A DNA stretch of 64,000 nucleotides from an uncultured Gemmatimonadales bacterium (GTDB taxonomy: Bacteria > Gemmatimonadota > Gemmatimonadetes > Gemmatimonadales > GWC2-71-9): positions 1-64,000 of the forward strand of contig CAWGSK010000009.1 of assembly GCA_963825055.1 (NCBI GenBank), given 5' to 3'. The notes beneath the pieces were generated by a model, which saw only the letters and a program-made list of their open reading frames with translations, had not been told where the DNA came from and did not search any database. How positions within the stretch are numbered: position 1 is the stretch's first letter; every line of letters begins with the position of its first letter. Positions 1,888 to 56,465 of the stretch are shown here, in pieces. Both the position numbers and the translations under genes were made by a program.

Positions 1888-2080
1888 TCGGGAGTCGGGA
1901 GTCGGGAGTTCGGGTATCGGGTATCGGGTATCGGGTATCGGGTATCGGGTATCGGGTATCGGGTATCGGGTATCGGGTATCGGGTATCGGGTATCGGGTA
2001 TCGGGTATCGCGAAGGTACTACCCACCCATGCACTAATCACTAATCACTAATCACTAGTCACTAGTCACTAATCACCAAT
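1888..2080. repeat. Bipartite repeat element: (TCGGGAG)x3 + (CGGGTAT)x14, spacer, (CACTA[A/G]T)x7
   Basis: Read directly: left arm 1888-2008, right arm 2032-2080. The right arm overlaps the 3' end of the gene at 2062. Confidence 0.95.
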
Positions 2081-3036
2081 CTCTTCACGCGCCTCGCCTC
2101 CCGCTTGCGACGGACCAGGTCCACCGCCCACTGGTACTGCATCCGCCGCCACTCGGCCCGGGGCAGGCGCTCGGCGGTACGCCGGTCGCGGAGCCAGTCG
2201 AGCAACTCCCCCACGGTGGGGAACCAGCCAGGACGGCGCCCCAGCATTTCCAAGCGCTCGCGGGTCAGGGGATGCACCCCCCCAGGCCCGGCGAAGCCCT
2301 TGCCCAGGTGCGTCGCGACGATGCAGAGCCCGCCCTCGGCCTCGAGCCGCTCCTGATTCTCCGGACGGAGCAACTCGTTGAACTCGTGCACGCCCTCGGC
2401 GTCGCTCCCGCTGAACCACCACTCGACGAGCGGCCGCCGCGGATCACGGTAGGGCATGGACGGGTTGATCCGGAGCAGGTTGATCTCGTTGAAGGTGAGG
2501 TTCCGCCCGTAGGTGATGTGCTCCCGGGCGAGGTCGCCCCACCACCACGGCGAGCCCTCAACGTGGCCCTGGAAATGATCCGGGCCCAGCCCCGCCAGCC
2601 GCCCGAACAATACGCGCAGCAGGGGAAAATCGAAGCGGTTGCCGCCCCAGTACAGGTTCTCGCGGTTGTAGCTGTGGTTGACGTGAATCCGGGGGTGGTG
2701 CCCGAAGAGACCGTGGAAGCGCTCCAGCGCCGCCTCGGTCCGCTCCCGCCGGCTCGACTCCATGGTGGCGCCGTGCCAGGTGATCTCGAACCCCCGGCGC
2801 GCGAGATCCACCACGAACTCGCGGTATGCCGGGTCCTCCAGCGTCTCGGACAAGGAGAAGTTCTTGCTCCCTTCGGGGCACGCCACGGGCCAGACGGTCT
2901 TGGTGGTCCGCATCCCCAGCTCCTCGAAGAGCCGGTAGATGGGCCGGACGTTCTCCAGCGTGGCGACGTCGGTGTCGTCAATGACCGTAAAGGCGAAGCG
3001 CTTTCCATCGGGCCACGGATGAGTCGGTGGGGTCAC
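2062..3036 (-). CDS. Polysaccharide deacetylase-like protein (NodB/CE4 fold)
   Basis: FAFTVIDDTD and GFEITWHG motifs; EPS-locus context. Confidence 0.7.
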   Translation of the reverse strand: MTPPTHPWPDGKRFAFTVIDDTDVATLENVRPIYRLFEELGMRTTKTVWPVACPEGSKNFSLSETLEDPAYREFVVDLARRGFEITWHGATMESSRRERTEAALERFHGLFGHHPRIHVNHSYNRENLYWGGNRFDFPLLRVLFGRLAGLGPDHFQGHVEGSPWWWGDLAREHITYGRNLTFNEINLLRINPSMPYRDPRRPLVEWWFSGSDAEGVHEFNELLRPENQERLEAEGGLCIVATHLGKGFAGPGGVHPLTRERLEMLGRRPGWFPTVGELLDWLRDRRTAERLPRAEWRRMQYQWAVDLVRRKREARRVKRLVISD

Positions 3037-4190
3037 AGGGCCTCGTCGGCGTCGCCGTCACCCCGGGTCACCAGCCAGTCCGACAGCGCGTCGGGCAGGC
3101 CGCAGGACCCATCGGGGTCACGCTGAAGAAGATGGATATTGCCCGGGAGCTTCACCCAGCCCCGCCGCACCATCTGGCGGAGCATGTCGCCATGGGACAT
3201 GGTGCCGAGAATCGCATCGGCGCCATCCCGCCGGGCCTCCCGGTCCACTCGCCGCAGAAGTGCCTGCAGGACGTCGGCCCGGGCAGGGTCGGCCACCAGT
3301 TCGGAAAGTACGGCAAGGCGTATGCCCTTGAGCCGCGGGTCGCCCGCGTCACGCGGACGGCGGAGGACGGCGATGCCGGCAAGCCGGGCGCCCTCGCGGG
3401 CCGTCACCAGGCGGTATCCCCCGTCCACGCTCCAGTCGTACCGCCAGCCAAGGTACCGGGCATCCCGCACGGCCGCGGCGCGGAAGGAGTCCCTCACCTC
3501 TTCCCAGAGCCGGTCCAGCTCGGCGGCCTCCGCCAGCGTCCCGGTCTCGATACGCCGCCCGGCAATGGCTACGGGAGTGCGGGCGACCGCCATGGCCGCC
3601 TTGCCCGTCAGCCCGACGAGCGGAGCGAGCCGGGCCCGCCTCCCGGCCGCGACGGCTCGCGGCAACCATGATGGCAGCCCGCCGAGGCCCAGGGCATCCA
3701 GGTCCAGCCGGGCGAAGAGCCGCCCGGGTTCGAGTACGCGGAGGCGATTGGGAATTGCGCCGAGGTCGGCAAACTTGAGTGCCCCGAAGAGGCGGCGGGC
3801 CGGTGACGCGGCCGCAATGGAGAACGCAGGGCCGAGGTGCTTCATCGCTTCCTTCAGCACCATGAACCCGATGGGCCCGTTCCGGTGTTCGGGGAGCACC
3901 ATGAGCCCCTTCATCCAGTGCACCCGCCGTTCCGCGCCATGGCTCCACAGCCGTCCGGCGATGGTGCTGACGTAGCCCAGGACCTTTCCGTCAGACAGCC
4001 AGAGAAACGTCGGCGGTTCCTCTCCGCCGGACGCGGGGTTCGTCTCCGCCTCGCGCGCGCGGGACTCGCGGACGCGCTGCTCCGTGGATCCCGGGCTCCA
4101 GGTGGCCCGGAAGAACTCGGCCATGGCGGCGGCATGCTCCGGCCCGGCGCGCACGACCTCCACCTCCGGCTTGCGGGCCGTCCCGCTCAT
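3033..4190 (-). CDS. GNAT family N-acetyltransferase
   Basis: LMVLPEHRNGPIG acetyl-CoA-binding motif and RDARYLGWRY; overlaps both neighbours. Confidence 0.7.
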   Translation of the reverse strand: MSGTARKPEVEVVRAGPEHAAAMAEFFRATWSPGSTEQRVRESRAREAETNPASGGEEPPTFLWLSDGKVLGYVSTIAGRLWSHGAERRVHWMKGLMVLPEHRNGPIGFMVLKEAMKHLGPAFSIAAASPARRLFGALKFADLGAIPNRLRVLEPGRLFARLDLDALGLGGLPSWLPRAVAAGRRARLAPLVGLTGKAAMAVARTPVAIAGRRIETGTLAEAAELDRLWEEVRDSFRAAAVRDARYLGWRYDWSVDGGYRLVTAREGARLAGIAVLRRPRDAGDPRLKGIRLAVLSELVADPARADVLQALLRRVDREARRDGADAILGTMSHGDMLRQMVRRGWVKLPGNIHLLQRDPDGSCGLPDALSDWLVTRGDGDADEAL

Positions 4191-5413
4191 GCCGCCATCC
4201 TGCCACGCTTCGCGAGCCAGCTCCGCAACGCGTCGAGATCGCGCGGTTCAAGTTTCCCGTGCACCGGCAGGGTGAACAGGCGGGCACAGATCTCCTCAGC
4301 GCCATGCCACGGGCCGCCGTCCTCCAGCCGCATGAATCCGGGCAGGCGGTGCAGCGGGAGGGGATAGCCCGGCATGACACCGAGGCGCTCGCCGTCGGGG
4401 TCGAGCTGGAACCGTGCGCCCTTGGGGGCGAGCACGGGCAGCCGGAGCCAGCCGGGTTCCGCGCGCTGCAACGGACGGACGGCTGTGAAGCCGCTCTGCT
4501 CGATTGCCGGCATGAGCGCCCGCACGTTGGAACGCCGTCGCGTGGCCTCGGCTTCCATTTCGGGCCAGGTCTCCCGGAGAATGCCGGCCTGCGCCGGGGC
4601 CATCGTCTCCACCGGATGCGGGTGGTGGTACGGGGTCTCGCCAAGCTTCAGGAAGGGCAGCGAGGCGGGAATGCCGTATACGCGCGGCCGGGCGAGCATC
4701 CACTGGGCGGCCGCACGGGCGAGCGCGTTGCTGCCCTTCCCCGAGGGCGCGACGAGACGCCGCACCCGGTCCAGCCTCGCTGCCCCCTTCGCATCGCCGG
4801 CCAGGAGCGCGCCGCCTCCGCTGCCGGTCAGCCCCTTGCCCCGCCCGAAGCTCAGCACGGCGAGGGAGCCGAACACGCCGAGCGGCTGCCCCGCCAGCGA
4901 CCCACCGACCGCCTGGGCGGCATCCTCGATCAGCAGGACGTCACGCGCGGCGGCCTGTTCGCGGATGTTGAGGATGTCCGCCGCCATGCCGAAGTAATGC
5001 ACCACGACCACCCCATCCACGCCCTCGTCCAGCACTCCTGCGAGTGACGACTGGTCGGGGCCGAGGGTGGCAGGATCCAGGTCGTACAGGCGCACGCGCG
5101 CCCCCGCCATGTCGGCGGCCGTGGCGAGGTCGTAACACCCCCAGGCGGGAAGCGCGATCCGCGCGGGTACTTCGCCGCACCAGTCGCGATCGGACCCGAT
5201 GGACGGCGCGCTCTTACCGGCGGCGCACATGGCAAGGGCCAGCGCCGAGGTGCCGCTGTCCACCAGCAGCGCATCCTCCGGATGGTAGCGCGCATCGATC
5301 AGGCGGCGGACGTCGCGGAGTGGCTCGCCCGCGCCGAGCAGGGCCCCCGCCCCGGCCACGAGGGCGCGGCGGGGGAGCGGTGACCAGACGGGCAGCTGGC
5401 GGCGGAGCTTCAC
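4187..5413 (-). CDS. DegT/DnrJ/EryC1/StrS family PLP-dependent aminotransferase
   Basis: DSGTSAL, IEDAAQA and LSFGRGK motifs. GTG start overlaps the upstream TGA. Confidence 0.85.
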   Translation of the reverse strand: MKLRRQLPVWSPLPRRALVAGAGALLGAGEPLRDVRRLIDARYHPEDALLVDSGTSALALAMCAAGKSAPSIGSDRDWCGEVPARIALPAWGCYDLATAADMAGARVRLYDLDPATLGPDQSSLAGVLDEGVDGVVVVHYFGMAADILNIREQAAARDVLLIEDAAQAVGGSLAGQPLGVFGSLAVLSFGRGKGLTGSGGGALLAGDAKGAARLDRVRRLVAPSGKGSNALARAAAQWMLARPRVYGIPASLPFLKLGETPYHHPHPVETMAPAQAGILRETWPEMEAEATRRRSNVRALMPAIEQSGFTAVRPLQRAEPGWLRLPVLAPKGARFQLDPDGERLGVMPGYPLPLHRLPGFMRLEDGGPWHGAEEICARLFTLPVHGKLEPRDLDALRSWLAKRGRMAA

Positions 5414-6429
5414 GGGATGTAGCGGACGATCCGTCCGCCGAGGGCGGTGGCCAGCGGCACGGGGAGCTTCTTCCAGAGCCGGGGGCCCCAGGCCCATGCG
5501 CCCTGGTCCGGCGACGGCGTGGCTGCTTCGGCCTCCGCGGCGGACTGGTACCAGTGCAGCTGTTCATCGCGCGAGCCCCACTGCCGCTTGAACCGGTGGG
5601 TACCGCCTCCGGGCGTGCACCGCCCGAAGTTGAAGACCGTTGCGCCGGCCTCCGACGCGCGCTCCATGAATGACCAGTAGAGCAGCATGTTGGGCGCGAT
5701 CCGGTTGTACTCCGAGAGCGCGGAGGCCCAGGTCATCTCGAACTCGTCATGCCACCGGAATCCGGCGCCGCAGGCGACGGGCCTGCCTTCGTACCAGGCA
5801 CAGCCGAACCATGCGTCGTCCGGGAAGGCAGCGGCGATCGCCTCGAAGAGCGCCCTGGGCTGGGCGGGTGTGCCAAGGTCGCGCATGTGGCGGCTGAAGA
5901 CCTCGTAGAACGGCGCCACCTGATCCGGACCGAAGCGCACCTCCGCCCCCTCCTTCATGGGCCGCCGGACCTGGCTCCTGACCTTGGCGGGAAGGGCTTT
6001 CCAGAGTGCTTCGCTGCCCCCGGCCATGTCGAGCAGGACGGTGATCTTGCGGTGGGAGACCGGCAGGTCGAGCGGGAGTGGTATCCTGCTCCGGAGCTCC
6101 AGGAGTTTCACGCCGTCCCGGGTCGCCATGTCCGTCGCGTACGCGGCGAGCGCGCGCACGGCCTCGTCCCCGCCGAGTGGACCGCCGTAATTCAGGAAAG
6201 GCATCGAGACGATGTAATGGCCGAAGACAAGGCTCTTCACCCGCACCAGCGGGAGCACTCCCGCCAGCCGGCCGTCGGAGCGCGCGGCGAGGTAGATACA
6301 CTCGTGCCCGTGCACTTCCTCGAGCACCTGCCTCCAGCCATAACGATGAAAGTGGGTAAAGCCGGGCTGCGCGGCGGCGAAGGAATCCCACTCGTGCGCC
6401 GGGCCCCGGAAGGGCTCGATCTCAGCCAT
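5410..6429 (-). CDS. FemAB-related protein, PEP-CTERM/XrtA polysaccharide system
   Basis: SMPFLNYGG, MRDLGTP, APNMLLYW, FNFGR and FKRQWG motifs. Confidence 0.9.
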   Translation of the reverse strand: MAEIEPFRGPAHEWDSFAAAQPGFTHFHRYGWRQVLEEVHGHECIYLAARSDGRLAGVLPLVRVKSLVFGHYIVSMPFLNYGGPLGGDEAVRALAAYATDMATRDGVKLLELRSRIPLPLDLPVSHRKITVLLDMAGGSEALWKALPAKVRSQVRRPMKEGAEVRFGPDQVAPFYEVFSRHMRDLGTPAQPRALFEAIAAAFPDDAWFGCAWYEGRPVACGAGFRWHDEFEMTWASALSEYNRIAPNMLLYWSFMERASEAGATVFNFGRCTPGGGTHRFKRQWGSRDEQLHWYQSAAEAEAATPSPDQGAWAWGPRLWKKLPVPLATALGGRIVRYIP

Positions 6430-7298
6430 CAGGCCGGGAGCGCGGCGGGGATGGTGGTATCGAAACCGCCGCCATGGCCGAAACAGCGCGCGACGGAGGT
6501 GAAGCGGAAGTCGGAGAGCAGCCGCTCGAGCCGGGGAACGGTCCGGTCGAGGCCGCGGTAATGCCGGACCCGCGTGAGGGGGCCCACCGGGAGCCGCGGC
6601 TGGTCGGGATCGAGTTCCCAGGGGTGGATGTAGAACATGCCGGACTGCCCGGCCCGCTCGATCTGGCGGAAGGCGCGACGGGTGACGGCATACGGGAACT
6701 GCCGGAAGTACCCGCCCCCCGCCGCGGGGAGCCGGAAGCCGGGGAGCTGGAGCACCGCGGGGGGCAGTTCCAGAAGCTTGCCCGCGGGCCGGGTAATGGT
6801 GTGCGGGACGGTCGGTGCCGAAGGGTAGCCGTAGCCCGGGCGCCGGATCGGGAAGAGGCTCGAGTCGTACCGGAAGCCCTCCTCCACCAGCACGTCGAGC
6901 GCCCACTCCCGTCCGGGCACGATGGAAAAGCTGGGCGCGCGGAATCCGACCACGGGCTGTCCGGAGACGTCCTCGAGAGCCGCCTTGCTGCGCCGGAGGT
7001 CGTCCCGGAAGCTTTCGGGGTCCAGCGTGGTGATCCGGCGGTGCCAGTAGCTGTGCGAAGCGACTTCATGCCCGGCGGCCACGATCCGACGGACCACGTC
7101 CGGGTGCCGGTGCGCCACCCAGCCCAGCGTGAAGAACGTGCCCAGCGCGTCATGCCGCGCGAGCAGGTCCAGCAGGAGGTCCAGCCCGATGTCGATGCGC
7201 GGGGCGTACTCGCCCCACGCTTCGCGACGGACCACGCCCTCGAATGCATTGACGTGGAAGTAGTCCTCGACATCGACCGTAAAACAGTGGTGGGGCAT
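6429..7298 (-). CDS. Polysaccharide deacetylase, PEP-CTERM locus subfamily (DUF3473)
   Basis: FTVDVEDYFHV, GHEVASHSY, GFRAPSFSI and YIHPWELDPDQPR motifs. Confidence 0.92.
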   Translation of the reverse strand: MPHHCFTVDVEDYFHVNAFEGVVRREAWGEYAPRIDIGLDLLLDLLARHDALGTFFTLGWVAHRHPDVVRRIVAAGHEVASHSYWHRRITTLDPESFRDDLRRSKAALEDVSGQPVVGFRAPSFSIVPGREWALDVLVEEGFRYDSSLFPIRRPGYGYPSAPTVPHTITRPAGKLLELPPAVLQLPGFRLPAAGGGYFRQFPYAVTRRAFRQIERAGQSGMFYIHPWELDPDQPRLPVGPLTRVRHYRGLDRTVPRLERLLSDFRFTSVARCFGHGGGFDTTIPAALPA

Positions 7299-7313
7299 GG
7301 AGATAAAGATAAT

Positions 7314-7424
7314 GGCGGTCGGGCGGTCGGGCGGTCGGGCGGTCGGGCGGTCGGGCGGTCGGGCGGTCGGGCGGTCGGGCGGTCGGGCGGTCGGGCGGTC
7401 GGGCGGTCGGGCGGTCGGGCGGTC
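7314..7424. repeat. Octamer tandem array (GGCGGTCG)x~14, left arm of the four-helix-bundle element
   Basis: 13 perfect units plus 7 of 8 bases of a 14th. Confidence 0.97.
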
Positions 7425-7471
7425 CGAAGCTGTGTTGCCGGTGCGTTGAGAGCAATGGCCCACGTTGGCAA

Positions 7472-7828
7472 ATGCGCTACGAGAACCTCGCCGCCTGGCA
7501 GAACTGCCACCGACTGGTCCTGTCCGTCTATGAAGCCTCACGCACATGGCCGACAGACGAGCGTTACGGCCTGACTTCCCAGGTCCGCCGGGCTGCGGTA
7601 TCTGCGGCGGCCAACATCGTCGAAGGCGCATCGCGGCGTGGTTCTCGTGAATTCCGGCGTTTCCTGGACATTTCCCGAGGCTCCCTCGCCGAACTGACCT
7701 ACCTTCTTTGTCTGGCGAAGGAACTAGGCTACCTCACGCCGGGTGAAGCCGCGAAGATTGAACCACTGCGAGAGCAGGCAAGCAAGCTGACATGGGGACT
7801 TTATGATTCGATGAAAGAAGGCAAATGA
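7472..7828 (+). CDS. Four-helix-bundle protein (TIGR02436 / 23S rRNA IVP / Avd-like family)
   Basis: YENLAAWQ, WPTDERYGLTSQVRRAAVSAAANIVEG and FLDISRGSLAEL signature; 118 aa; opposite strand to all neighbours. Confidence 0.93.
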   Translation: MRYENLAAWQNCHRLVLSVYEASRTWPTDERYGLTSQVRRAAVSAAANIVEGASRRGSREFRRFLDISRGSLAELTYLLCLAKELGYLTPGEAAKIEPLREQASKLTWGLYDSMKEGK

Positions 7829-7850
7829 AAATGTGCGCGTCAGATCTCTT

Positions 7851-7920
7851 CTGTCCGCCTGCCCGCCTGCCCGCCTGTCCGCCTGTCCGCCTGCCCGCCT
7901 GTCCGCCCTGTCCGCCCTGC
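7851..7920. repeat. Octamer tandem array (CTG[T/C]CCGC)x~8, right arm of the four-helix-bundle element
   Basis: Read directly; the reverse complement is the GGCGG[A/G]CA family also seen at 21654 and 52520. Confidence 0.9.
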
Positions 7921-8069
7921 TTACGTCCGCCCTGCCACGTGCGCGCCGATGGCGCGCTCGTGGCGAACGGGCGACACGGGGCAGTGGGGAGCGTCGGTGG
8001 AGCCGGTCTGGAGAGTACCCGGCCGTCAGCGGCTCACTACAGTACCCCGTGCGCACCGTTCATGACTCA

Positions 8070-8148
8070 GGCGGTCGGGCGGTCAGGCGGTCGGGCGGTC
8101 GGCATGAATGGGGCTACTGACCGCCGGTCCGCCGGTCCGCCCGTCCGA
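8070..8148. repeat. Bipartite element (GGCGGTC[G/A])x4 ... (CGGTCCGC-like)x4
   Basis: Left arm 8070-8101, right arm 8117-8148. The right arm encodes the C-terminus of PEP-CTERM paralog 1. Confidence 0.85.
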
Positions 8149-8872
8149 CTGCCCTGCGGCGCATCATCCCTGCCCCACCCATCCCTGCCAGTCCCGTCGC
8201 GAGCAGCGTCATCGTAATCGGCTCCGGGGTCGCGTAGGTGCTGCAGCGGCCCTCCTGGAGGCAGGTACCCGTCCAGAACTCGGTGTACTGCCCGGTATCG
8301 TCGGTCGCACGGACGATGATCTCGCTCCGCGCCGGGTCCCAGCCGCCTCCGTTGACCTTGAACTGGAAGGTCACCCAGCCGGGGCCGCCGAGGTTGTTGC
8401 ACGGGGACTGGTAGAGAGTAGGGTCGCCGCCCCAGGCGGAGATCTGACCGCAGCCGCTCGAGATGCCGGCGCTCTGGCTGGATCCGTCGGGGGCCGCGTA
8501 GTCCAGCGCGAAGGCGTTCGGCCCGATGTTCTTCACGTACCAGCTGCCGGGTGTGTGTCCGGAGGCGGCGGGGCCGGATCCGCCGGTCCAGCCGGCGACG
8601 GCGGTTACGCCTGCTGGCACGTTGTAGAACCCGATGCCGCGCAGGAGGGAGAACGCGGGCGTCTGCTGCCCGGTGACGCCGGCATTGCCCGAAAGGTTCC
8701 AGACCCGCACGGTGACGTCGGGTCCGGCGACGGTGATCTCGACGGCCGCGCAGGTGATGAACGAGTCACCCCCGCACAGGCGGTAGGAGCGGAACCCATC
8801 CGCCCTCGCCACCGATGGCAGGAGCGGCACGAGGGCCGTCGCGAGGATGAGGACTGCTGCTGTGCGCTTCAT
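8114..8872 (-). CDS. PEP-CTERM sorting domain protein (paralog 1)
   Basis: Signal peptide ending VARA, then DGFRSYRLCGG; C-terminal TPEPITMTLLATGLAGMGG-RRR. Confidence 0.9.
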   Translation of the reverse strand: MKRTAAVLILATALVPLLPSVARADGFRSYRLCGGDSFITCAAVEITVAGPDVTVRVWNLSGNAGVTGQQTPAFSLLRGIGFYNVPAGVTAVAGWTGGSGPAASGHTPGSWYVKNIGPNAFALDYAAPDGSSQSAGISSGCGQISAWGGDPTLYQSPCNNLGGPGWVTFQFKVNGGGWDPARSEIIVRATDDTGQYTEFWTGTCLQEGRCSTYATPEPITMTLLATGLAGMGGAGMMRRRAVGRADRRTGGQ

Positions 8873-8934
8873 CGTTCGACTCCCGGGGAAGGGACTCGGG
8901 GGCGGCCCGGAGTGCCGGCCACGCCATACGGAGA

Positions 8935-8950
8935 AGCATGTTGCGGGCCA
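8935..8950 (-). promoter_or_regulatory. Putative sigma54 (-24/-12) promoter TGGCCCGCAACATGCT
   Basis: Exact GG-N10-GC spacing upstream of paralog 1; IHF-like CAACGACTTA on the minus strand near 8974-8983. Confidence 0.7.
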
Positions 8951-9120
8951 GAATGGCGCTGGAGCCAGGCCTGTAAGTCGTTGTCCAGTTGAAACTTAGT
9001 TCGTGCAGATTACTGCGCTGGCTGTGATGATCTCAGTCTTGTTGCAGGGTTGCCGCAGCGGGGGTCCTGAAGCGTTGTCACTCGACACCAGACGGCGGCC
9101 GGCGGCCCCCGCGAAAACAG

Positions 9121-9158
9121 AAAGCTCCCTGGCAGCCCATGGCTGCCAGGGAGCTTTT
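9121..9158 (-). terminator. Intrinsic terminator hairpin downstream of PEP-CTERM paralog 2
   Basis: aaagctccctggcagcc-cat-ggctgccagggagcttt perfect inverted repeat with T runs on both strands. Confidence 0.8.
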
Positions 9159-9178
9159 CCCCTGAGCGACAGATCCGC

Positions 9179-10243: not shown

Positions 10244-10266
10244 CCCCGAGTCAGGCGAAGATCGCT

Positions 10267-11214: not shown

Positions 11215-11376
11215 GGTAGTGAGTGAGCAGGGGAGTAGGGAGTAGGGAGATAGGGAGTAGGCAGTAGGCAGCGGGGGTGGGGAGTGGGGGGGCGGTGGGC
11301 AGCAGACGATGGAAAAGACATCGGCCACCACCAACGGAGTTCCTCTCCCCTACTCCCTGCTCCCTGTTCCCCTCTC
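11215..11376. repeat. Degenerate bipartite element (GGGAGTA)n ... (CTCCCT[A/G])n
   Basis: G-rich arm about 11215-11296; complementary C-rich arm about 11341-11376. Confidence 0.75.
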
Positions 11377-17638: not shown

Positions 17639-17817
17639 AACGGTGAACGGTGAACGGTGGATGGTGAACGGCAAACAACGGTGAACGGTGAGCGGTGAGC
17701 GGTAAGCGGGAACTGCCTCGCAAGGGTGGATTCGAGTTTGAGGTGCAATTCCGTTCAGCGTTCACCGCTTCGACGCTTACCGCTCACCGCTTACTGCTTA
17801 CCGCTCACCCTTTACCA
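17639..17817. repeat. Bipartite inverted element (CGGTGA[A/G])n ... (T[T/C]ACCG[C/T])n
   Basis: Left arm about 17639-17710, right arm about 17750-17817; arms mutually complementary; lies between divergent genes. Confidence 0.9.
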
Positions 17818-21653: not shown

Positions 21654-21868
21654 GGCGGACAGGCGGACAGGCGGACAGGCGGACAGGCGGACAGGCGGAC
21701 AAGGCGGACAGGCGGACAAGGCGGACAGCAGGCGGACCGGAATATGAACCGTCGCCGGCAGGCGACGATGTGCCGAGCAGCGGCTTCAGCCGCGTGGACA
21801 GGGCGGACAGGCGGACGGTAACGACTCAACGACTTAACGACTCAACGACACCGATACCCGATACCCGA
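21654..21868. repeat. Bipartite element (GGCGGACA)x~10 ... (AACGACTC)x~4 + (GATACCC)x2-3
   Basis: Starts directly after the TAG stop and ends 7 nt before the next ATG. Confidence 0.92.
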
Positions 21869-23609: not shown

Positions 23610-24283
23610 TGCACCACCGGTTGTACGCGCTGCTCGTCGCGCTGGCGGTGGTCCTCACCGCCGTGCCCGCGGCCCGGGCCCAGGCGCCCGACAGCGGCCA
23701 GGTCGCCCTCGACCTGGCCCTGAGCCCCGACGCGCGCCCCGACGGCTCACGCGACCCGATCGTCCAGATCCGCCATCTACTGAGCGATTCGCGCTGGATG
23801 GACATGCTGCGCTCGGGGTTCCCCGTCCGACTCCGGTACCGGCTGGAGGTCTGGCGATCGCGCGGAATCTGGTTTGATGCGTTCGAACGGGAAATCGAGT
23901 GGAATGTGGTGGTGCGCCACGAGCCGCTGCTCGACCAGTATTCGGTCACCACCATCACGCCGAGCGGGACACGGGAAAAGCGGTACGCGGGGCTCGATCC
24001 CCTCGCCGCGGCGCTCGGCGTGCCGTATCGGATCCCGGTGCAGCCGAAGGGCGATGGGGAGTTCTACTACAAAGTCACGCTGCAGGTGACGACGCTCTCC
24101 GACTCGGACCTCGACGAGCTGGAGCAGTTTCTCCGGGGGGAACCGCCGCCGGCCGCCGGCTCCAGCCGCGACTTCGGGGACGCGGTGGGCCGCGGAGTGA
24201 CACGGATGCTGCTCAAGCTGTCGGGGTTGCCGAGCCTGCGGCTGGAGGAGAGGAGCGGGAAGTACAGGAAAAGCAGTGACTAG
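23609..24283 (+). CDS. Exported hypothetical protein (DUF4390-like)
   Basis: Signal peptide ending ARA; LRSGFPVRLRYRLEVWR..WFD pattern. Confidence 0.55.
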   Translation: MHHRLYALLVALAVVLTAVPAARAQAPDSGQVALDLALSPDARPDGSRDPIVQIRHLLSDSRWMDMLRSGFPVRLRYRLEVWRSRGIWFDAFEREIEWNVVVRHEPLLDQYSVTTITPSGTREKRYAGLDPLAAALGVPYRIPVQPKGDGEFYYKVTLQVTTLSDSDLDELEQFLRGEPPPAAGSSRDFGDAVGRGVTRMLLKLSGLPSLRLEERSGKYRKSSD

Positions 24284-24418
24284 TGACTGGTGACTGGTGA
24301 CTGGTGACTGGTGACTGGTGATTAGTGGTTGGTGCCTGGTGGCCGGGATCGATGCTTGTCCGCGCGCACCGTACCGAACCTGAAGCACTAGTCACTAGTC
24401 ACTAGTCACTAGTCACTA
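24274..24418. repeat. Bipartite inverted element ([A/G]GTGACT)x~9 ... (CACTAGT)x~5
   Basis: Between convergent genes; both stop codons fall inside the arms. Confidence 0.92.
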
Positions 24419-24958
24419 TCGCAGCGCCGCCAGCGCGCTCTCCCCATAGAACAAGCTGATGTACTTCGCCTGGGTCTCCGTCAGGCGGCGCACCGCCCAC
24501 GAGAGGTGCACGAAGTGCGGCTCGACCGGGGGGTTGAGCGGCAGCATGCCGCATTCCTCCGGCAGCCGGTTGCCCTTGCGGGTGTTGCAGGTGCTGCAGG
24601 CCGTGACGACGTTGGTCCACTCGTTGGTGCCGCCGCGCGAGATGGGCACGAGGTGATCGCGCGTCAGGCATTCCCGCGTCCGCAACTCCGGCGTCGTCCG
24701 GTGACAGAACTGGCACCGGTAATGATCCCGCGCGAAGAGGAAGGTGTTGGTGACCTGGCGGCGAAAACGGCGGGGAACGTGGACGAAACGGACAAGGCGG
24801 ATGATGGCGGGCTTCGGGAGGGCGAGGCGCGCACTTCGTATGAGGTCGCCGTCGGCCTCGACGATCTCCGCCTTGCCGTCGATGACAAGGCGAAGCGCCC
24901 GGCGAACCGGCACCATGGTCAGTGGCTCAAATGAGGCATTGAGGGCGAGGCAACGCAC
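24416..24958 (-). CDS. HNH endonuclease (McrA-like)
   Basis: LALNASFEPL, RDHYRCQFC, TRDHLVPISRGG and NVVTACSTCNTRKG. Start is GTG 24958 or TTG 24985. Confidence 0.9.
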   Translation of the reverse strand: MRCLALNASFEPLTMVPVRRALRLVIDGKAEIVEADGDLIRSARLALPKPAIIRLVRFVHVPRRFRRQVTNTFLFARDHYRCQFCHRTTPELRTRECLTRDHLVPISRGGTNEWTNVVTACSTCNTRKGNRLPEECGMLPLNPPVEPHFVHLSWAVRRLTETQAKYISLFYGESALAALR

Positions 24959-25024
24959 AGCTTCTCTCCCGGGGAGTCGATTCAATGCTATATGGGGACG
25001 GGCGAGGGGGGCAAGGGGGAACAG

Positions 25025-25090
25025 CGTGAGCCGTGAGCGGTGAGCGGGAACGGGGCTCCTGCCTGCTTACCGCTCACTGCTTACCGCTTT
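25025..25090. repeat. Short bipartite element (GTGAGC[C/G])x3 ... (GCT[T/C]AC[C/T])x3-4
   Basis: Read directly; the argR stop lies within the right arm. Confidence 0.75.
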
Positions 25091-35475: not shown

Positions 35476-35692
35476 GTGAACGGTGAACGGTGAACGGTGA
35501 ACGGTGAACGGTGAACGGTGAACGGTGAACGGTGAACGGTGAACGGTGAACGGTGTCGCGAAGTTACTTCCCCAAGCACCTGATCACTAATCACCAGTGA
35601 TCACTCACCACTCACCACTCACCACTCGCTACTCGCTCTCGCTACTCACCACTCGCTACTCGCTACTCGCTACTCGCTATTCGCTATTCGCT
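35476..35692. repeat. Bipartite element (GTGAACG)x11, spacer, CACTAAT/(CACTCAC)n/(CTA[C/T]TCG)n
   Basis: Left arm 35476-35552 is perfect; right arm about 35586-35692 is a mosaic. Confidence 0.95.
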
Positions 35693-40606: not shown

Positions 40607-40726
40607 TGGTTGAGTCGTTGAGTGGTTGAGTGGTTGAGTGGTTGAGTGGTGCTGGAGATTAGGGCCCTGCCGCCCGATTCTCAACTGGCCCCCTGGGCTG
40701 GTGACTCAACGATTCAACGACTCAAC
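40607..40726. repeat. Bipartite inverted element ([G/C]GTTGAGT)x5 ... (A[C/T]TCAACG)x3
   Basis: Between divergent genes; arms complementary. Confidence 0.88.
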
Positions 40727-41683: not shown

Positions 41684-41858
41684 GGGAGTCGGGAGTCGGG
41701 AGTCGGGAGTCGGGAGTCGGGAAGGTACTTTCCGCCCAGGCACTAATCACTATTCACTAATCACTATTCGCCGGAAAATCGGACGCTGAATCGTCAAGTC
41801 GTTAAATCGTTGAGTCGCCTCTTTCACCGTTCACCGCTCACCGTTCACCGCTCCGTTC
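41684..41858. repeat. Two adjacent bipartite elements: (GGGAGTC)x5 ... (CACTA[A/T]T)x4, then (TTGAGTCG-like)x4 ... (TCACCG[T/C])x4-5
   Basis: Arms at 41684-41721, 41741-41768, about 41787-41817 and about 41823-41858. Confidence 0.88.
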
Positions 41859-47719: not shown

Positions 47720-47782
47720 TCAAGGTCAAGGTCAAAGGTCGAAGGAGTACTTGAACGACCTTCGACCTTCGTCCCTCGACCC
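47720..47782. repeat. Short bipartite inverted element (AAGGTC-like)x3-4 ... (CGACCTT-like)x4
   Basis: Between convergent genes; arms complementary. Confidence 0.7.
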
Positions 47783-49141: not shown

Positions 49142-49154
49142 CCCGGCCCCGGCC

Positions 49155-49649
49155 ATGAAGGTGCTGGGGATCGACCCCGGCACCCATGTCATCGGGTACG
49201 GCGTACTCGAACCGACCCGGACCCGTACGCCCCGGCTGCTCGAGTGCGGCGTCCTCCGCACCGACGGCACCGCCCCGCTGGCCAACCGGCTCAAGACCAT
49301 CCACGACGGCATCAGTGAACTGCTCGTGCGGCACCGGCCCGACGTCATGGCGGTGGAAGGCATCTTCTACGCCCGGAATGCGCGGACCACGATGGTCCTG
49401 GGCCACGCCCGCGGGGTCATCCTGCTCTGCGCCGAGCAGGCGGGCGTCACAGTGGCGGAATACTCGCCCGCGATGGTCAAGAAGACCGTGGTCGGGCGGG
49501 GAGCCGCCATGAAGGACCAGGTCGGCTACATGGTGCAGCAGCTGCTGCGGCTCCAGCACCCGCCCGAGCCGGCCGACGCCGCCGATGGCGTGGCGATCGC
49601 GCTGACCCACCTGCTGCGCCTCGTCCCGCGCGCAGGCGCCCTGGCATGA
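49155..49649 (+). CDS. ruvC: Holliday junction resolvase
   Basis: LGIDPG, GHARG and DAADGVAIA motifs. Confidence 0.95.
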   Translation: MKVLGIDPGTHVIGYGVLEPTRTRTPRLLECGVLRTDGTAPLANRLKTIHDGISELLVRHRPDVMAVEGIFYARNARTTMVLGHARGVILLCAEQAGVTVAEYSPAMVKKTVVGRGAAMKDQVGYMVQQLLRLQHPPEPADAADGVAIALTHLLRLVPRAGALA

Positions 49650-50248
49650 TCGCGACCGTCACGGGCACTCTCACCGAACGCGTTGCCGACTCGATCGTCA
49701 TCGAGACCGAGGGCGGCGTCGGGTATGCGATCACGGTTCCGCTGGGCGTGTTCGAGCGACTGCCCGCGCCGGGAGCCAGGGTGCGGCTGTTCACCGAACT
49801 GGTGGTGCGCGAGGACGGATGGTTCCTTTTCGGATTCGACCGGCCGGCCGAGCGGGCCATCTTCCGGCGGCTGCTGACGGCGAGCGGGTTCGGCCCCCGG
49901 CTGGCCATGGCACTCCTCAGTACCCTCGGCCCGGAGCGGGCGGTGCGGAGCATCCAGGAGCGCGACATCGCGGCCCTCGCGACCGTGAGCGGTATCGGAA
50001 AGAAGAAGGCGGAGAAGCTGGTGGTGGAGCTGCAGGACCGGTTCAAGGACTTCACCGTGGAAAGCGCCACGGGGCGCTCCGCCACGGCCGGCGACGCGGT
50101 GCAGGCCCTGGTGGCCCTCGGCTATTCGGTCGCGGCGGCCGAGGAAGCCGTCCGCCATTCCCTCGCGACGGACGGGGCGGAAGAACCCGCTCTGGTGGTG
50201 CGCCGCGCCCTGCAGTGGATCACGACCTCACGGGGAGGCAAGGCATGA
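49646..50248 (+). CDS. ruvA: Holliday junction branch migration protein
   Basis: GGVGY, VRED, GIGKKKAE and ALVALGY motifs. Confidence 0.95.
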   Translation: MIATVTGTLTERVADSIVIETEGGVGYAITVPLGVFERLPAPGARVRLFTELVVREDGWFLFGFDRPAERAIFRRLLTASGFGPRLAMALLSTLGPERAVRSIQERDIAALATVSGIGKKKAEKLVVELQDRFKDFTVESATGRSATAGDAVQALVALGYSVAAAEEAVRHSLATDGAEEPALVVRRALQWITTSRGGKA

Positions 50249-50421
50249 CTGTCGCGGCCCGGACGGCTGAGTGGATCTGCACCAACTGCGGCTCGACCAA
50301 CCGCAAGCTGGTGCCATTCGGCGTGGAGGAGATCGAGGACCGGTGCGTCTCGTGCGGGAAGAAGCACGACGTCCGGATCAATGAGCGCCCGGTTCGCTGG
50401 GACGCCAGCCAGGCCCGCTGA
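50245..50421 (+). CDS. Small zinc-ribbon protein (58 aa)
   Basis: GGAGG SD; start overlaps the ruvA stop and stop overlaps the ruvB start; WICTNCG...CVSCG. Confidence 0.75.
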
Positions 50422-51455
50422 TGACCGATCGCGCCCGGCTCCAGGTCACCACCCCCGACGTGATCCCCGAGGAATCCGGTGCCGAGATGGCGCTGCGCCC
50501 CTCGCGGCTCGATGAGTTCGTGGGGCAGGAGCAGGTGCGCGCGTCGCTGCAGATCGCCATCGACGCCGCGCGTGGCCGTGGCGAGACGCTCGACCATCTC
50601 CTCTTCTTCGGCCCGCCCGGCCTTGGCAAGACGACCCTCGCCATGCTGGTCGCGCGGGAGATGGGGGTGGAGATCCGGACGACCTCCGGCCCCGTCCTGG
50701 AGAAGGCCGGTGACCTGGTCGGGCTGCTCACGAGCCTGGGAACGGGCGACGTGCTGTTCATCGACGAGATCCACCGGCTCCGCCCCGCCCTGGAGGAGTT
50801 TCTGTACCCCGCCATGGAAGACTACCGGGTGGACGTCCGCATCTCCGACGGGCCGCGGGCGCAGACCATCCCGATGAACATCGAGCGCTTCACCCTGATC
50901 GGCGCGACTACCCGCTTCGGCCTGCTCACACCGCCGATGCGGGCCCGATTCGGCATGGTGGAACGGCTCAACTTCTACCCGCCGGAAGACCTCCAGCGCA
51001 TCGTCACGCGCAGCGCGTCCATCCTGGACGTCCCGACTGACACCGACGGCGCCGTCGAGATCGCCCGGAGGAGCCGGGGCACGCCGCGCGTCGCCAACCG
51101 GCTCCTCCGGCGGGTGCGGGACTACGCCCAGGTCCGGGCCGACGGCCGGATCACCGGCGATGTCGCGCGCGAAGCCCTCGCCCGGCTCAATGTGGACGAG
51201 TTCGGCCTCGACGACATGGACGCACGGATCCTCACCACGATCATCGAGAAGTTCGGCGGCGGCCCGGTGGGGCTCGGCACGGTCGCGGTTGCGGTGGGCG
51301 AGGACCCGGGCACCCTCGAGGAAGTGTACGAGCCCTACATGATCCAGCAGGGGTTCCTCGAGCGCACCCCGCGCGGCCGTTGCGCCACCGCGCTCGCGTA
51401 CCAGCGGTTCGGCTACCGCCCTCCCGACCGGCAGGCATCGATCTTTGACGGCTGA
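50421..51455 (+). CDS. ruvB: Holliday junction DNA helicase
   Basis: [19 protein letters not shown] and RTPRGR motifs. Confidence 0.97.
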
Positions 51456-52486
51456 ACGCCGGTTCCGCACGGCCGACTTCGACTACGAGCTCCCGGAAGA
51501 ACTGATCGCCCAGCGCCCCGCGTCACGGCGGGAGGCGAGCCGCCTGCTCGTCGTCCGGCCCGGTGGCGAGCCCGGGCTCGAGGACCGGCACTTCCCCGAC
51601 CTTGCCGCCCTGGTGGCGCCGGGCGACTGTCTGGTGATCAACACCACTCGCGTGCGGCATGCCCGACTCCTCGGTACCCGGCCGTCGGGCCGGCCGGCCG
51701 AGCTGTTGCTCATCCACCCCGGGGCTGCCGGCGACTGGGTCGCCATGGGAAAACCGGGCAGCGCGCTCCAGCCCGGGAAGCGCATCGCCTTCGGCAGCGA
51801 GGCATCGGCCGAAACACTCGAGGTGCTGCCGGACGGCAACCGCCGTGTGCGCTTTCACGGGATGCCGGTCGAGGAAATCATGGCCCGGTTCGGCCGCCTT
51901 CCGCTGCCGCCTTACATCCGGCACGACCCGGACATCGATGACGAGGAACGCTACCAGACCGTCTACGCCGAGCGCGAGGGAAGCGTCGCGGCGCCGACGG
52001 CGGGACTGCATTTCACGCCTGCCCTGCTGGATACGCTCGCTGGACGGGGTGTGGCCATCGCGCGCATCGACCTCGAGGTCGGGCCCGGCACGTTCCGGCC
52101 GGTCGAGGAGGAAGACCCCGCGGCGCACCCGATGCATCCCGAGCGCTTCGAGATTCCGGAAGAGGCCGCCGTCGTCGTCGCCGCGACCCGGACCGGTGGA
52201 GGACGCGTGTGGGCCGTCGGCACCACGGTCGTCCGCGCGCTGGAGAGTGCCGCGGCAGGCGATGGCGTCCGCCCGGGGCCAGCCACGACAAGCCTCATGA
52301 TCACGCCGGGCTACCGGTTCCGCGTGGTGGATGCCCTGGTTACGAACTTCCACCTGCCGCGGAGCACCCTGCTCATGCTGGTCTCGGCGTTCGCGGGGTA
52401 CGATACGACCATGCAGGCCTATGCCCACGCCGTCCAGGAGCGCTACCGGTTCTATTCGTACGGGGATGCGATGGCGGTGGTGGGGA

Positions 52487-52500
<14 letters not shown>
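51445..52500 (+). CDS. queA: SAM:tRNA ribosyltransferase-isomerase
   Basis: [31 protein letters not shown] and YSYGDAM motifs. Confidence 0.97.
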
Positions 52501-54094
<1,594 letters not shown>

Positions 54095-54098
<4 letters not shown>

Positions 54099-54631
54099 GC
54101 CTGCTCCGCCTCCACCTGTACGGCTCGCCGGTCCTGCGCCAGCAGGGCGAGCCCGTCGGTGGGGTCACTGACGAAATCCGGGCCTTCGTGGAAGACCTTT
54201 TCGAGACCATGCACGCCGCCAAGGGCGTCGGCCTGGCCGCGAACCAGGTGGGGGTGGCGCGGAAAGTGGCCGTCGTCGAGGTGGACGGCGAGCGGGTGGT
54301 GCTGATCGACCCGGAAATCATCGAGGCGGAAGGCCGCGACCGCGGCGAGGAAGGCTGCCTCAGCATTCCCGAGATCTTCGGCGAGGTGACCCGGCCCGGG
54401 AAGATCGTGCTCGAAGCCACCGACGAACACGGCACCCGGCGCCGCCGTGAAGCCACCGGCCTGCTCGCGCGCGCGATTCAGCACGAGATGGACCATCTGG
54501 ACGGCATCCTGTTCATCGACCACCTGAGCCCGATGAAGCGCCGCATGCTGATGAATCGCTACCGGCGTGAACACAAGGATGACGCGGGGTATATCCTGGA
54601 GATCGATGCCGCCCAGGCACGCTCAGGATAA
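54095..54631 (+). CDS. def: Peptide deformylase
   Basis: GVGLAANQ, EGCLS and HEMDH motifs. Confidence 0.96.
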
Positions 54632-55557
54632 TGCGGATCGCTTTCTTCGGGACGCCCGAGTTCGCGGTGCCGTCCCTGCACGCCCTCCTCACCGCAGGTC
54701 TCGACGTCGCCTGCGTCGTCACCCAGCCCGACCGACCCCGCGGCCGCTCCCGCTCCACCCTCTCCGCTTCCCCCGTCAAGGACGCCGCGACCGACCTCGA
54801 CCTGCCGCTGCTGCAGCCCGAGCGCCCGGCGGGCGACGTGTTCCTGGAGACGCTGCGGCGCTACAACACCGACCTCGGGGTGGTGGTGGCCTACGGACAC
54901 ATCCTCCGGCCGGAAGCGCTCGAGGTGCCCCGGATGGGGATGATCAACGTCCACGCCTCCCTCCTGCCGAAGCTGCGCGGCGCGGCGCCGATCGAATGGG
55001 CCATCCTGAACGGCGACCACGAAACCGGCATCTCCATCATGCGGATGACGGCCGGCATGGACAGCGGGCCGGTCATCCGCCGCGAGCACACGCCGATCGG
55101 CAAGACGGAGACCAAGGGCGAACTGCGCTCCCGCCTCGCTCACATGGGCGCGCTCACCCTGGTGGCCAGTCTCACCGATGGCGACGACCTGGCCGGCGCG
55201 CCGCAGGACGACGGCCAGGCGACCCTCGCGCCCAAGATCCACCGGGAACTCTGCCGGCTCGACTGGACCGCCAGCGCCGAGGCCTGCGTCCGGCGCATTC
55301 GCGCGTTCGACCCGGAGCCGGGTGCGTGGGCGGTGCTGGACGGGGAGACGGTGAAGCTGTTTGATGCGCGCGTCTCCAGCAGCGCCGCCGACGCCGCTGC
55401 CCCCGGGACCATCGTGCGCGCCACCGATCGACTGCTCCTCGCGACCGGCGACGGAGCGGTGATCGTGCGCGAGATCCAGCCCGCGGGCCGCCGACGCATG
55501 CCGGTGCCGGACTGGGTCCACGGCCGCGCCTCCCCGGAGGGGCAGCAGTTCACGTGA
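54631..55557 (+). CDS. fmt: Methionyl-tRNA formyltransferase
   Basis: FFGTPEFA and NVHASLLPKLRGAAPI motifs. Confidence 0.96.
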   Translation: MRIAFFGTPEFAVPSLHALLTAGLDVACVVTQPDRPRGRSRSTLSASPVKDAATDLDLPLLQPERPAGDVFLETLRRYNTDLGVVVAYGHILRPEALEVPRMGMINVHASLLPKLRGAAPIEWAILNGDHETGISIMRMTAGMDSGPVIRREHTPIGKTETKGELRSRLAHMGALTLVASLTDGDDLAGAPQDDGQATLAPKIHRELCRLDWTASAEACVRRIRAFDPEPGAWAVLDGETVKLFDARVSSSAADAAAPGTIVRATDRLLLATGDGAVIVREIQPAGRRRMPVPDWVHGRASPEGQQFT

Positions 55558-56177
55558 GGCCGCTCCCCCGGGTCCACGCCGTGACGGACCGGGCGGTGCT
55601 GGCGCTCGAGGACCTCGGCGTGCGGGTTGCCGCCATTGCCGCCGCCGGACCGGTTGTCGCCCTGCACGTGCGGGACCATGAGGCGGGCGGAGCCGTGCTG
55701 GCCGCGGCCGCGAGGCGCTTCCTTGCGCTCGCCCGTCCGCCGGAGGCCGCCGTCATCGTGAACGGGCACCCCGACATCGCCGCCGCACTGGGAGCGCAGG
55801 GCGCGCAGCTCGGCGCGACGGACCTGAGCCCCGATGACGCCCGCCGGGTCATGCCGCACGGCTGGCTCGGCGCCTCCGTGCACTCGCTGGAGGAAGCCGA
55901 GCGGGTCCGGGATGGAGTGGATTTCTTCGTGGCAGGTTCTCTCTATGAAACCCCCACGCATCCCGGGCGGCCCGGCCAGGGGCCGGCGCTGGTGGAATCG
56001 ATCGCCCGGCTCGGGCGTCCGGTGATTGCCATTGGTGGCGTGACGATCGAACGGCTGCCCGAACTCCGCGATGCCGGCGCATGGGGCGCCGCGGCAATCC
56101 GCGCCCTGTGGCTCGCACCCGACCCGGCCGCGGCCGCCCTCGCCTTTGCCGAGCCCTGGATGGCGGACGATGCCTGA
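55554..56177 (+). CDS. thiE: Thiamine phosphate synthase family protein (ThiE/TenI-like)
   Basis: GASVHSLEE, ETPTHP and VIAIGG; next to thiS and thiG. Could be TenI rather than ThiE. Confidence 0.7.
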   Translation: MRPLPRVHAVTDRAVLALEDLGVRVAAIAAAGPVVALHVRDHEAGGAVLAAAARRFLALARPPEAAVIVNGHPDIAAALGAQGAQLGATDLSPDDARRVMPHGWLGASVHSLEEAERVRDGVDFFVAGSLYETPTHPGRPGQGPALVESIARLGRPVIAIGGVTIERLPELRDAGAWGAAAIRALWLAPDPAAAALAFAEPWMADDA

Positions 56178-56379
56178 AATCACCCTCACCGTAAACGGCG
56201 ACCGCCGGACCATCCCTGGCCCCGCCACCCTGGCGGACCTGCTCCGCCGCCTCGACCTCGACCCGCGCATGGTGGTGGTGGAGCGCAACCGGAGCATCGT
56301 GCGGAAAGACGCCCTGCCGGACACTCCGGTGGCGGACGGGGACGTCATCGAGATCGTGCATTTCGTGGGCGGGGGGTAG
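56170..56379 (+). CDS. thiS: Sulfur carrier protein ThiS
   Basis: VNG, VERN and C-terminal IVHFVGGG. Confidence 0.95.
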   Translation: MPEITLTVNGDRRTIPGPATLADLLRRLDLDPRMVVVERNRSIVRKDALPDTPVADGDVIEIVHFVGGG

Positions 56380-56465
56380 TGGTGAGCGGTGAGCCAGTAA
56401 GGGATCACCGCCCGCATGGAGTCAAGCCCTGCAACCCGTTCACCGTTTACCGTTTACCGCTCACG
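56380..56465. repeat. Short bipartite element (GGTGAGC)x2 ... (CCGTT[C/T]A)x4
   Basis: thiS-thiG spacer; arms complementary. Confidence 0.7.

What the first reader, a model, noticed from the sequence alone, without database searches (positions are those of the whole stretch)
1888..56465. Family of polarised bipartite 7/8-mer repeat elements (G-rich arm, spacer, C-rich arm) at 15 intergenic sites
Seen: paired tandem arrays at 1888-2080, 7314-7920, 8070-8148, 11215-11376, 17639-17817, 21654-21868, 24274-24418, 25025-25090, 35476-35692, 40607-40726, 41684-41768, 41787-41858, 47720-47782, 52520-52637 and 56380-56465. About ten different units are used (CGGGTAT, CGGGAGT, AGGGAGT, CGGTGAA/G, TRGTGAY, TAGCGAR, GGCGGTCG, GGCGGACA, GGTTGAGT), nearly all 7 or 8 nt. 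In all 15 the G/purine-rich strand is the left arm and the C-rich strand is the right arm, at tandem, divergent and convergent junctions alike, so the element reads the same way on both strands. Established: heptamer STRR repeats are known in filamentous cyanobacteria. Inference: independent slippage microsatellites would not share polarity or unit length, so a dedicated mechanism builds or moves these arms, analogous to REPIN/RAYT. I know of no description of this architecture.
Basis: partly seen in the sequence, partly recalled or inferred. Interest (0 to 1): 0.9.

Follow-up and report, generated by a model that had tools for sequence, protein, structure and literature searches.

The report
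Word-coded repeat arms at gene junctions
The paired 7-9-base repeats between genes are real and are best read as gene-less relatives of small cassettes in which each copy of an uncharacterised four-helix-bundle gene sits between arms of its own repeat word, which offers a testable protein-to-repeat code for the unexplained excess of such repeats in bacteria.

Summary
All 15 sites are real and polarised. Genome-wide, 126 of 158 adjacent arm pairs are G-rich-left/C-rich-right and 0 reversed; background spacers are about 2:1. All 8 such genes of the genome lie between inverted arms, with 7 different word families. Dispersed arrays use the genome's own cassette words (71% within one mismatch, null 15%; also in relatives), and word length follows protein clade. 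69 of 126 pairs join two different words and hardly base-pair. Junctions are empty, refilled or word-swapped in relatives. RNase III was found in 1 of 41 genomes of the order, and no reverse transcriptase in the repeat-rich ones. Best reading: a REPIN/RAYT-like system with a non-catalytic recognition protein; the mobilising enzyme is unknown. Paired, polarised heptamer arrays are in print (Rehm 2015; Aklujkar 2009), and this scan already noted the gene-plus-arms link on other DNA (125 findings). New here: the word-to-paralogue match and the mixed arms.

The parts
7472..7828 (+). four-helix-bundle gene (PF05635 / TIGR02436, Avd/S23p-like, 118 aa) in the loop of the cassette
   Evidence: TIGR02436 E 7e-30; PF05635 1.8e-31; PDB 2GSC 2.5e-21; model pLDDT 94.6, TM 0.9 to 2GSC, 0.79 to bAvd 4DWL
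7314..7424 (+). left arm of the gene cassette, GGCGGTCG x14
7851..7920 (-). right arm of the gene cassette, GGCGG(A/G)CAG-type 8-mers decaying outward to 9-mers
1888..2080 (.). mixed element: ATCGGG-family left arm (2 + 14 units), 21-nt core with a -10-like TACCTT on the minus strand facing the gene that starts near 1868, GTGA(T/C)TA right arm
   Evidence: no stable fold, z +2.4 for 1910-2055; a strict sigma-70 scan finds no promoter
8070..8148 (.). same-word element, GGCGG(A/T)C(A/G) family, gene-less
   Evidence: z -5.2
11215..11376 (.). same-word element, GGGAGTA family
   Evidence: z -3.1
17639..17817 (.). same-word element, GT(G/A)A(A/G)CG family
21654..21868 (.). mixed, compound element: GGCGGACA left arm, REP-like palindrome in the core, then CGTTGAGT and ATCGGGT right arms in series
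   Evidence: same word series with other copy numbers and another core in an 89%-identity relative L121, empty in distant relatives
24274..24418 (.). same-word element, GTGA(C/G/T)T(A/G) family, between convergent genes
   Evidence: z -10.3; empty in L127 and L129, other words in L122 and L125
25025..25090 (.). same-word element, GTGAGCG
   Evidence: z -4.7
35476..35692 (.). mixed element: GTGAACG x11 left; core with TAACTT on the minus strand; compound GTGAGT/AGCGAGT right arm
40607..40726 (.). same-word element, (C/G)GTTGAGT family, between divergent genes
   Evidence: z -5.9
41684..41768 (.). mixed element: GGGAGTC left, shared promoter-like core, GTGA(T/A)TA right
   Evidence: z +1.1
41787..41858 (.). 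mixed element: CGTTGAGT-type left, GTGAACG-type right
   Evidence: z +0.4
47720..47782 (.). same-word element, GAAGGTC family
   Evidence: z -4.1; bridged by an independent contig
52520..52637 (.). mixed, compound element at queA-tgt: GGCGGACA left, GGTTGAGT then ATCGGGT right
   Evidence: z +2.0; junction at most 30 nt in 12 of 29 relatives, arms of other words in 4 of 29 (read by eye)
56380..56465 (.). same-word element at thiS-thiG, GT(G/A)A(A/G)CG family
   Evidence: bridged with 0 differences in two runs; mostly short in relatives, mixed arms of other words in L134 and L150

Best explanation
The elements are the gene-less members of a family of small selfish cassettes. The full form is a G-rich arm, an Avd-like four-helix-bundle (4HB) gene and a C-rich arm. 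Each 4HB paralogue goes with one repeat word, and a genome accumulates arrays of the words of the paralogues it carries. Shown: the architecture, the word match, the anchoring of arms at gene ends, and turnover. Inferred: the protein, probably a pentameric ring like Xcc0516 and bAvd, binds 4-5 units of its word on one strand (single-stranded DNA or RNA), one unit per crevice, and so marks arms for copying to or retention at gene junctions by host or neighbouring enzymes. Binding one strand in one direction at both ends gives the polarity. Arms then change independently: slippage alters copy number, and replacement or nesting by other words gives mixed and compound arms around whatever lies between them (often a host promoter or a REP-like palindrome).
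For: 8 of 8 PF05635 genes of G000 lie between inverted arms, covering 7 of the 11 word families. Dispersed 7/8-mer arrays within one mismatch of the genome's own cassette words: 71% of 446 in G000, null 15%, maximum 43% in 2000 draws; exact match 36% against 1%. In 19 relatives 96 of 178 match against 26.5 expected. Array density rises with 4HB count over 32 sampled genomes (Spearman 0.55); 1 array in 288 kb from 4 genomes without 4HB. Word length clusters on the protein tree, 10 changes against 23.1 shuffled. Held-out homologues of the window's protein: 48 of 67 have matching inverted arms, periods 8/9/10 = 34/9/5, none 7, none C-rich upstream; controls 5-7%. Words have fixed and free positions like recognition sites, and same-family arms share the modal unit in only 11 of 52 pairs, null 16.4, so they are not mirror copies. 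Unit number peaks at 4-5. bAvd binds RNA with flipped-out bases in crevices between its five protomers (10.1101/2023.10.23.563531, passages).
Against: No binding or mobility was shown, and 4HB has no known catalytic activity (established knowledge). Four word families (ATCGGG, AGTCGGC, AAGGTCG and the 9-mer) have no 4HB cassette in this 87%-complete assembly. Seven sampled genomes of family f2 carry 1-8 4HB genes and 0 arrays, and G020 (7 genes) has few. About a third of 4HB loci lack two matching arms (29 of 91; 19 of 67), most of those in G019 among them. Elements persist vertically: L121 keeps the word series, and most of 33 strain-pair comparisons differ only in copy number. Only one clear filled/empty strain pair was found, without a target duplication, and its direction is unknown. 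Kin are not independent, and some samples were drawn from contigs that carry 4HB genes.
Confidence: 0.5

Rival explanations
1. Passive seeding: cassettes arrive with their arms, and ordinary slippage, ectopic recombination and gene conversion scatter the words; the protein does not read them.
For: Explains the own-word match and the clustering on the tree by co-inheritance; strain pairs show rewritten arms with 94-100% identical flanks; one core family recurs at 11 loci.
Against: Does not explain why free positions vary while fixed ones stay at 93-100% across hundreds of units, why paralogues in one genome keep distinct words, or why clade predicts period across genera.
Confidence: 0.2
2. Host regulatory elements: arms are selected at gene ends to shape mRNA (G-rich tract after the stop codon avoids loading Rho, the later C-rich tract is hidden in a hairpin or 5' leader), with 4HB as an RNA-binding regulator.
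For: G-rich strands start a median 2 nt from stop codons (247 arms); C-rich strands lie a median 58 nt before starts (200 arms) (own rough gene calls); a -10-like box lies 0-9 nt inside 21 of 146 start-side arms; Rho is present; array-free spacers have the same weak bias.
Against: Same junctions are empty or hold other words in relatives; 69 of 126 pairs are mixed and duplex poorly (median -14.6 against -34.9 kcal/mol); no G.U bias in the transcribed strand (21 against 14 in cassettes, 5 against 6 in G000); Rehm 2015 found no regulatory role.
Confidence: 0.2
3. mRNA-level intervening sequences cut out by RNase III, like the S23p-bearing 23S rRNA IVS.
For: Same gene family, inverted arms and heptamers in the Coxiella IVS (PMC4990558, passages); same-word elements fold well (7 of 7 tested, z -2.6 to -10.3).
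Against: RNase III found in 1 of 41 genomes of the order by two models (1 of 34 near-complete ones; controls 9 and 8 of 14); 4 of 4 mixed elements tested do not fold better than shuffles.
Confidence: 0.03
4. Telomerase-like building: both 3' ends of a break are extended with G-rich repeats by a templated polymerase (Avd partners a reverse transcriptase in DGRs) and rejoined head to head.
For: Predicts inward-pointing G-rich strands, independent arms and word switches in series; inner thirds slightly purer than outer (0.868 against 0.837, p 0.075).
Against: No PF00078 match in G000, G007, G015 or G019, the latter three 98-100% complete; spacers often hold intact promoters or genes.
Confidence: 0.04
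5. Independent slippage microsatellites whose polarity reflects background strand bias.
For: Copy number varies between strains; background bias 258:124; polymerase slippage was proposed for heptamers (cited in Rehm 2015).
Against: 126:0 polarity, a closed set of 11 word families, family-specific inner ends and the own-word match.
Confidence: 0.03

Closest known systems
Convergent GGGAATC / GGGGA(C/T)T heptamer array pairs of Xanthomonas and Nostoc (Rehm 2015, PMC4692102; abstract, passages and Discussion read); STRR of cyanobacteria
   Same: Intergenic 7-mer arrays, mode of four units, convergent pairs, G-rich strand after stops and on the antisense strand before starts, kept between related species with length variation.
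   Different: One word per genome there, 11 families of period 7-9 here; mixed and compound arms; most words here cannot form G3 quadruplexes; no link to a gene family in the passages read.
Paired 7/8-mer sites of Geobacter metallireducens, classes 1-3 (Aklujkar 2009, PMC2700814; passages and supplement legends; supplements 1-12 searched, 13-19 not)
   Same: Several classes of tandem arrays paired on opposite strands with variable spacers; other mobile elements insert beside them (here 25 of 28 GTCAT..GAG palindromes lie within 200 bp of an arm).
   Different: Read there as IHF/HU-type regulator sites; no mention of S23 or four-helix proteins found in the files searched.
S23p-bearing intervening sequence of 23S rRNA (Warrier 2016, PMC4990558; passages)
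   Same: PF05635 gene in the loop between inverted arms with heptamer repeats of variable number.
   Different: Here between protein genes, mostly gene-less, in an order where RNase III was found in 1 of 41 genomes.
REPIN/RAYT (Bertels and Rainey 2011, PMC3116915; passages)
   Same: Each repeat class lies beside its own single-copy gene; dispersed gene-less doublets; extragenic.
   Different: Arms are tandem arrays, not palindromes; the gene is not a HUH/Y1 transposase; partners are mostly unlike.
DGR accessory protein Avd (bAvd, 4DWL/8UB7)
   Same: Same fold (TM about 0.8; weak NF033474 hit).
   Different: No reverse transcriptase found in the genome; below the Avd cut-off.

Membership tests
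REPIN/RAYT | cognate gene is a HUH (Y1) tyrosine transposase | tested here: not met
   the gene in the arms is PF05635; the two Y1_Tnp genes have their own palindromes
REPIN/RAYT | unit is a doublet of the same repeat forming a hairpin | tested here: not met
   57 same-family against 69 mixed pairs; 4 of 4 mixed elements do not fold
REPIN/RAYT | each repeat class lies beside its own gene | tested here: met
   7 of 11 families flank a 4HB paralogue
REPIN/RAYT | excision or transposition intermediates | not testable with these tools
   only contigs, no raw reads, were listed
ORF-bearing 23S rRNA IVS | PF05635 ORF between inverted arms | tested here: met
   7314-7920 and 7 more loci
ORF-bearing 23S rRNA IVS | inserted in 23S rRNA | tested here: not met
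   window copy lies between protein genes
ORF-bearing 23S rRNA IVS | excised by RNase III | tested here: not met
   gene not found in G000 and in 39 of 40 relatives; cleavage itself not testable
STRR / convergent heptamer pairs | intergenic tandem 7-mers, mode about four units, G-rich strand after stops | tested here: met
   15 of 473 arms inside genes, distances to gene ends; unit mode 4-5
STRR / convergent heptamer pairs | G-quadruplex-competent GGG tracts | tested here: not met
   most family consensus words lack GGG
DGR | reverse transcriptase beside Avd | tested here: not met
   no PF00078 in G000, 87% complete

The most novel reading that the evidence does not exclude
Avd-like four-helix-bundle pentamers are sequence-specific readers of 7-10-base repeat words, one word per paralogue with the period set by the protein clade, and they drive an RNase III- and RT-independent spread and rewriting of single arms at gene ends: a new class of protein-coded selfish repeat that accounts for the excess of heptamer repeats across bacteria.
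Probability: 0.3. Interest if true: 0.88.

Novelty: new variant of a known kind. Interest (0 to 1): 0.6.

Why it matters
Two old open points meet: why 7-mer repeats are over-represented between bacterial genes (no function found in Rehm 2015) and what the widespread PF05635 proteins do. This genome supplies seven natural protein-word pairs and about 470 target arms, so a cross-binding matrix can test the link directly. It also removes two easy explanations in this lineage (RNase III processing, hairpin formation as the unit). If true, it gives a family of small orthogonal repeat-reading proteins and shows how a fifth of long spacers (279 of 1270) were reshaped.

Tried and rejected
Assembly artefact: rejected for two sites by independent contigs. 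No RNA holder listed, so expression is untested. The recurrent core AAG-N-TA was first taken as an element motif; its reverse complement TANCTT is sense-biased in array-free tandem spacers (71 against 6), so it is read as a host -10 box; it also occurs inside 11 of 230 stop-side arms and a strict scan calls no promoter at 1888. Mirror-copy origin of same-family arms: not supported in gene-less pairs (11 of 52), though 63 of 114 gene cassettes have identical arm consensus. G.U selection: no signal. Purity gradient: weak. Reverse transcriptase and RNase III: not found. A cross-phylum scan was not achieved: the single-protein scan returned almost only Gemmatimonadota, so breadth beyond this phylum rests on the papers and on unchecked scan notes. 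No close congener was held; comparisons rest on co-binned strain contigs and one 89% relative. Ten paper searches found no paper linking the protein family to dispersed arrays; the library lacks most subscription papers, Mrazek 2007 was not held and is cited only through Rehm 2015, and Geobacter supplements 13-19 were not searched.
Full report
Observation. All 15 stretches contain the arrays described, with the G-rich arm left. The window is C9:1-64000 of a 3.53 Mb, 87%-complete, 6%-contaminated assembly; its relatives are Gemmatimonadales by record title. Periods 7, 8 and 9 dominate genome-wide (381, 151, 95 TRF rows; others at most 32); a shuffled control has none. Polarity is 140:1 of 170 neighbouring pairs and 126:0 of 158 among the 11 word families that hold 523 of 618 arrays (families grouped by eye, strain duplicates included). 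Array-free spacers show only 258:124 of 771. In samples from 32 relatives it is 34:3 of 43. Contigs from public runs bridge two elements with 0-1 differences.

What was missed. Window 7472-7828 encodes a four-helix-bundle protein (TIGR02436, PF05635) that matches Xcc0516 (2GSC) in sequence and fold and bAvd in fold. All 8 such genes of the genome, one of them truncated, lie between a G-rich upstream and a C-rich downstream arm, using 7 word families. In relatives 62 of 91 loci with full flanks pass a strict matching-arm test, against 5-7% of random positions.

Word code. With 12 co-binned strain contigs and arrays within 900 bp of a 4HB gene left out, 71% of 446 dispersed 7/8-mer arrays are within one mismatch of an own cassette word (null from other genomes' cassettes 15%, maximum 43%); exact matches 36% against 1%. 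In 19 relatives with both data, 96 of 178 match against 26.5 expected, although not all their cassettes were sampled. Density correlates with 4HB count (rho 0.55, 32 genomes, 20-190 kb each; kin not independent; some contigs chosen because they carried a 4HB gene). Against this, seven genomes of family f2 have 1-8 genes and no arrays in the samples, and four G000 families have no cassette in the assembly. On a tree of 71 proteins (rows with a word and over 85 residues; 104 columns, many open forks) word length needs 10 changes against 23.1 shuffled. As a held-out test, the 80 nearest homologues of the window protein gave 67 with full flanks, 48 with matching arms, periods 8, 9 and 10 only (at least two loci repeat earlier ones).

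Anatomy. With my own rough gene calls, 15 of 473 arms lie inside genes. G-rich strands begin a median 2 nt from a stop codon or, read as C-rich strands, end a median 58 nt before a start; pairs occur at 61 tandem, 39 convergent and 14 divergent junctions. This anchoring is the same rule Rehm 2015 reported and gives one polarity at all three junction types. 69 of 126 pairs join different families (57 same-family, null 16.7) and duplex poorly; in the window 7 of 7 same-word elements tested fold better than shuffles and 4 of 4 mixed ones do not. Words have fixed and free positions, and same-family partners are no more alike than random members (11 of 52, null 16.4). 66 of 90 cores are unrelated; one group of 11 shares a promoter-like core and one of 9 holds REP-like palindromes. 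The recurrent AAG-N-TA is the reverse complement of the host's sense-biased TANCTT box.

Turnover. queA-tgt is at most 30 nt in 12 of 29 relatives and holds polarised arms of other words in 4. The 24274 junction is empty in L127 and L129 and holds other words in L122 and L125; the 21654 junction keeps its word series, with other copy numbers and another core, in an 89% relative and is empty in distant ones. thiS-thiG carries mixed arms of other words in L134 and L150. Among 33 comparisons between co-binned strain contigs, one is filled against empty (C13:124997, C28:16518), several show rewritten words with 85-100% identical flanks (C27:3862, C32:22398, C13:152957, C9:151513) and most differ only in copy number. 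Sites are thus long-lived but arms are refreshed.

Enzymes. RNase III was found in 1 of 41 genomes of the order with two models; reverse transcriptase in 6 of 41, not in G000, G007, G015 or G019. Rho is present. Small nuclease-type genes with their own repeats co-occur: Y1 transposase, GxxExxY, DUF559 and a GIY-YIG gene nested inside a mixed-arm element. None is shown to act on the arms.

Mechanism. Most likely (0.5) a REPIN/RAYT-like selfish system whose specificity factor is a non-catalytic 4HB ring reading 4-5 units of its word on one strand; by analogy, bAvd holds flipped-out RNA bases between its five protomers (10.1101/2023.10.23.563531, passages). Binding, oligomer state and the copying step are inferred. 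Rivals: passive seeding (0.2), host mRNA regulation (0.2), telomerase-like synthesis (0.04), RNase III IVS (0.03), plain slippage (0.03).

Known and new. Paired polarised arrays are in print (PMC4692102; PMC2700814), as is a heptamer-bearing S23p insert in rRNA (PMC4990558) and the one-gene-per-repeat-class pattern of REPINs (PMC3116915). Ten searches found no paper linking PF05635 to dispersed arrays, but the library is partial. This scan noted the gene-plus-arms layout in 125 other findings, one noting subfamily-specific words and one a lineage without RNase III; searches for mixed arms and for the own-word match returned none. Verdict: real, a new variant of a known kind; interest 0.6.

Noticed in passing
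G000:C3:91000-91900: A small GIY-YIG gene between GTCAT..GAG / CTC..ATGAC palindromes is nested inside a mixed-arm element; 25 of 28 such palindromes in the genome lie within 200 bp of an arm.
   Followed up: partly
G000:C13:290996-291343 and C30:97637-97981: GxxExxY genes carry their own inverted, roughly period-9 repeats with the purine-rich strand upstream (both arms clear at C13).
   Followed up: no
G000:C8:64416-64700; C3:21452-21799; C20:60213-60473: A DUF559 gene and two Y1 transposase genes, each flanked by its own repeated palindrome family.
   Followed up: no
order-wide, G000-G040: RNase III (TIGR02191, PF00636) found in only 1 of 41 genomes, including 33 of 34 near-complete ones without it.
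   Followed up: partly
G000 contigs C6, C16, C21, C24-C29, C31-C33: Co-binned strain contigs 90-99.9% identical to other contigs of the assembly; useful as natural allele pairs.
   Followed up: yes
window 21654-21868 and G000:C19:7245-7540: The same compound element, core included, occurs at two loci with different outer flanks.
   Followed up: no
G000:C9:155394-155625: Core holds a long T and C homopolymer stretch absent from the strain copy on C33; probably an assembly error.
   Followed up: no
L017, L018, L021 (queA-tgt junction): Family f3 genomes hold a long, non-periodic hairpin of about 210 nt at the same junction.
   Followed up: no
window 24416-24985: HNH-domain gene after argR (weak IscB/Cas9 HNH hits, far below cut-off); conserved at this place in relatives, so probably not tied to the arms.
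   Followed up: partly
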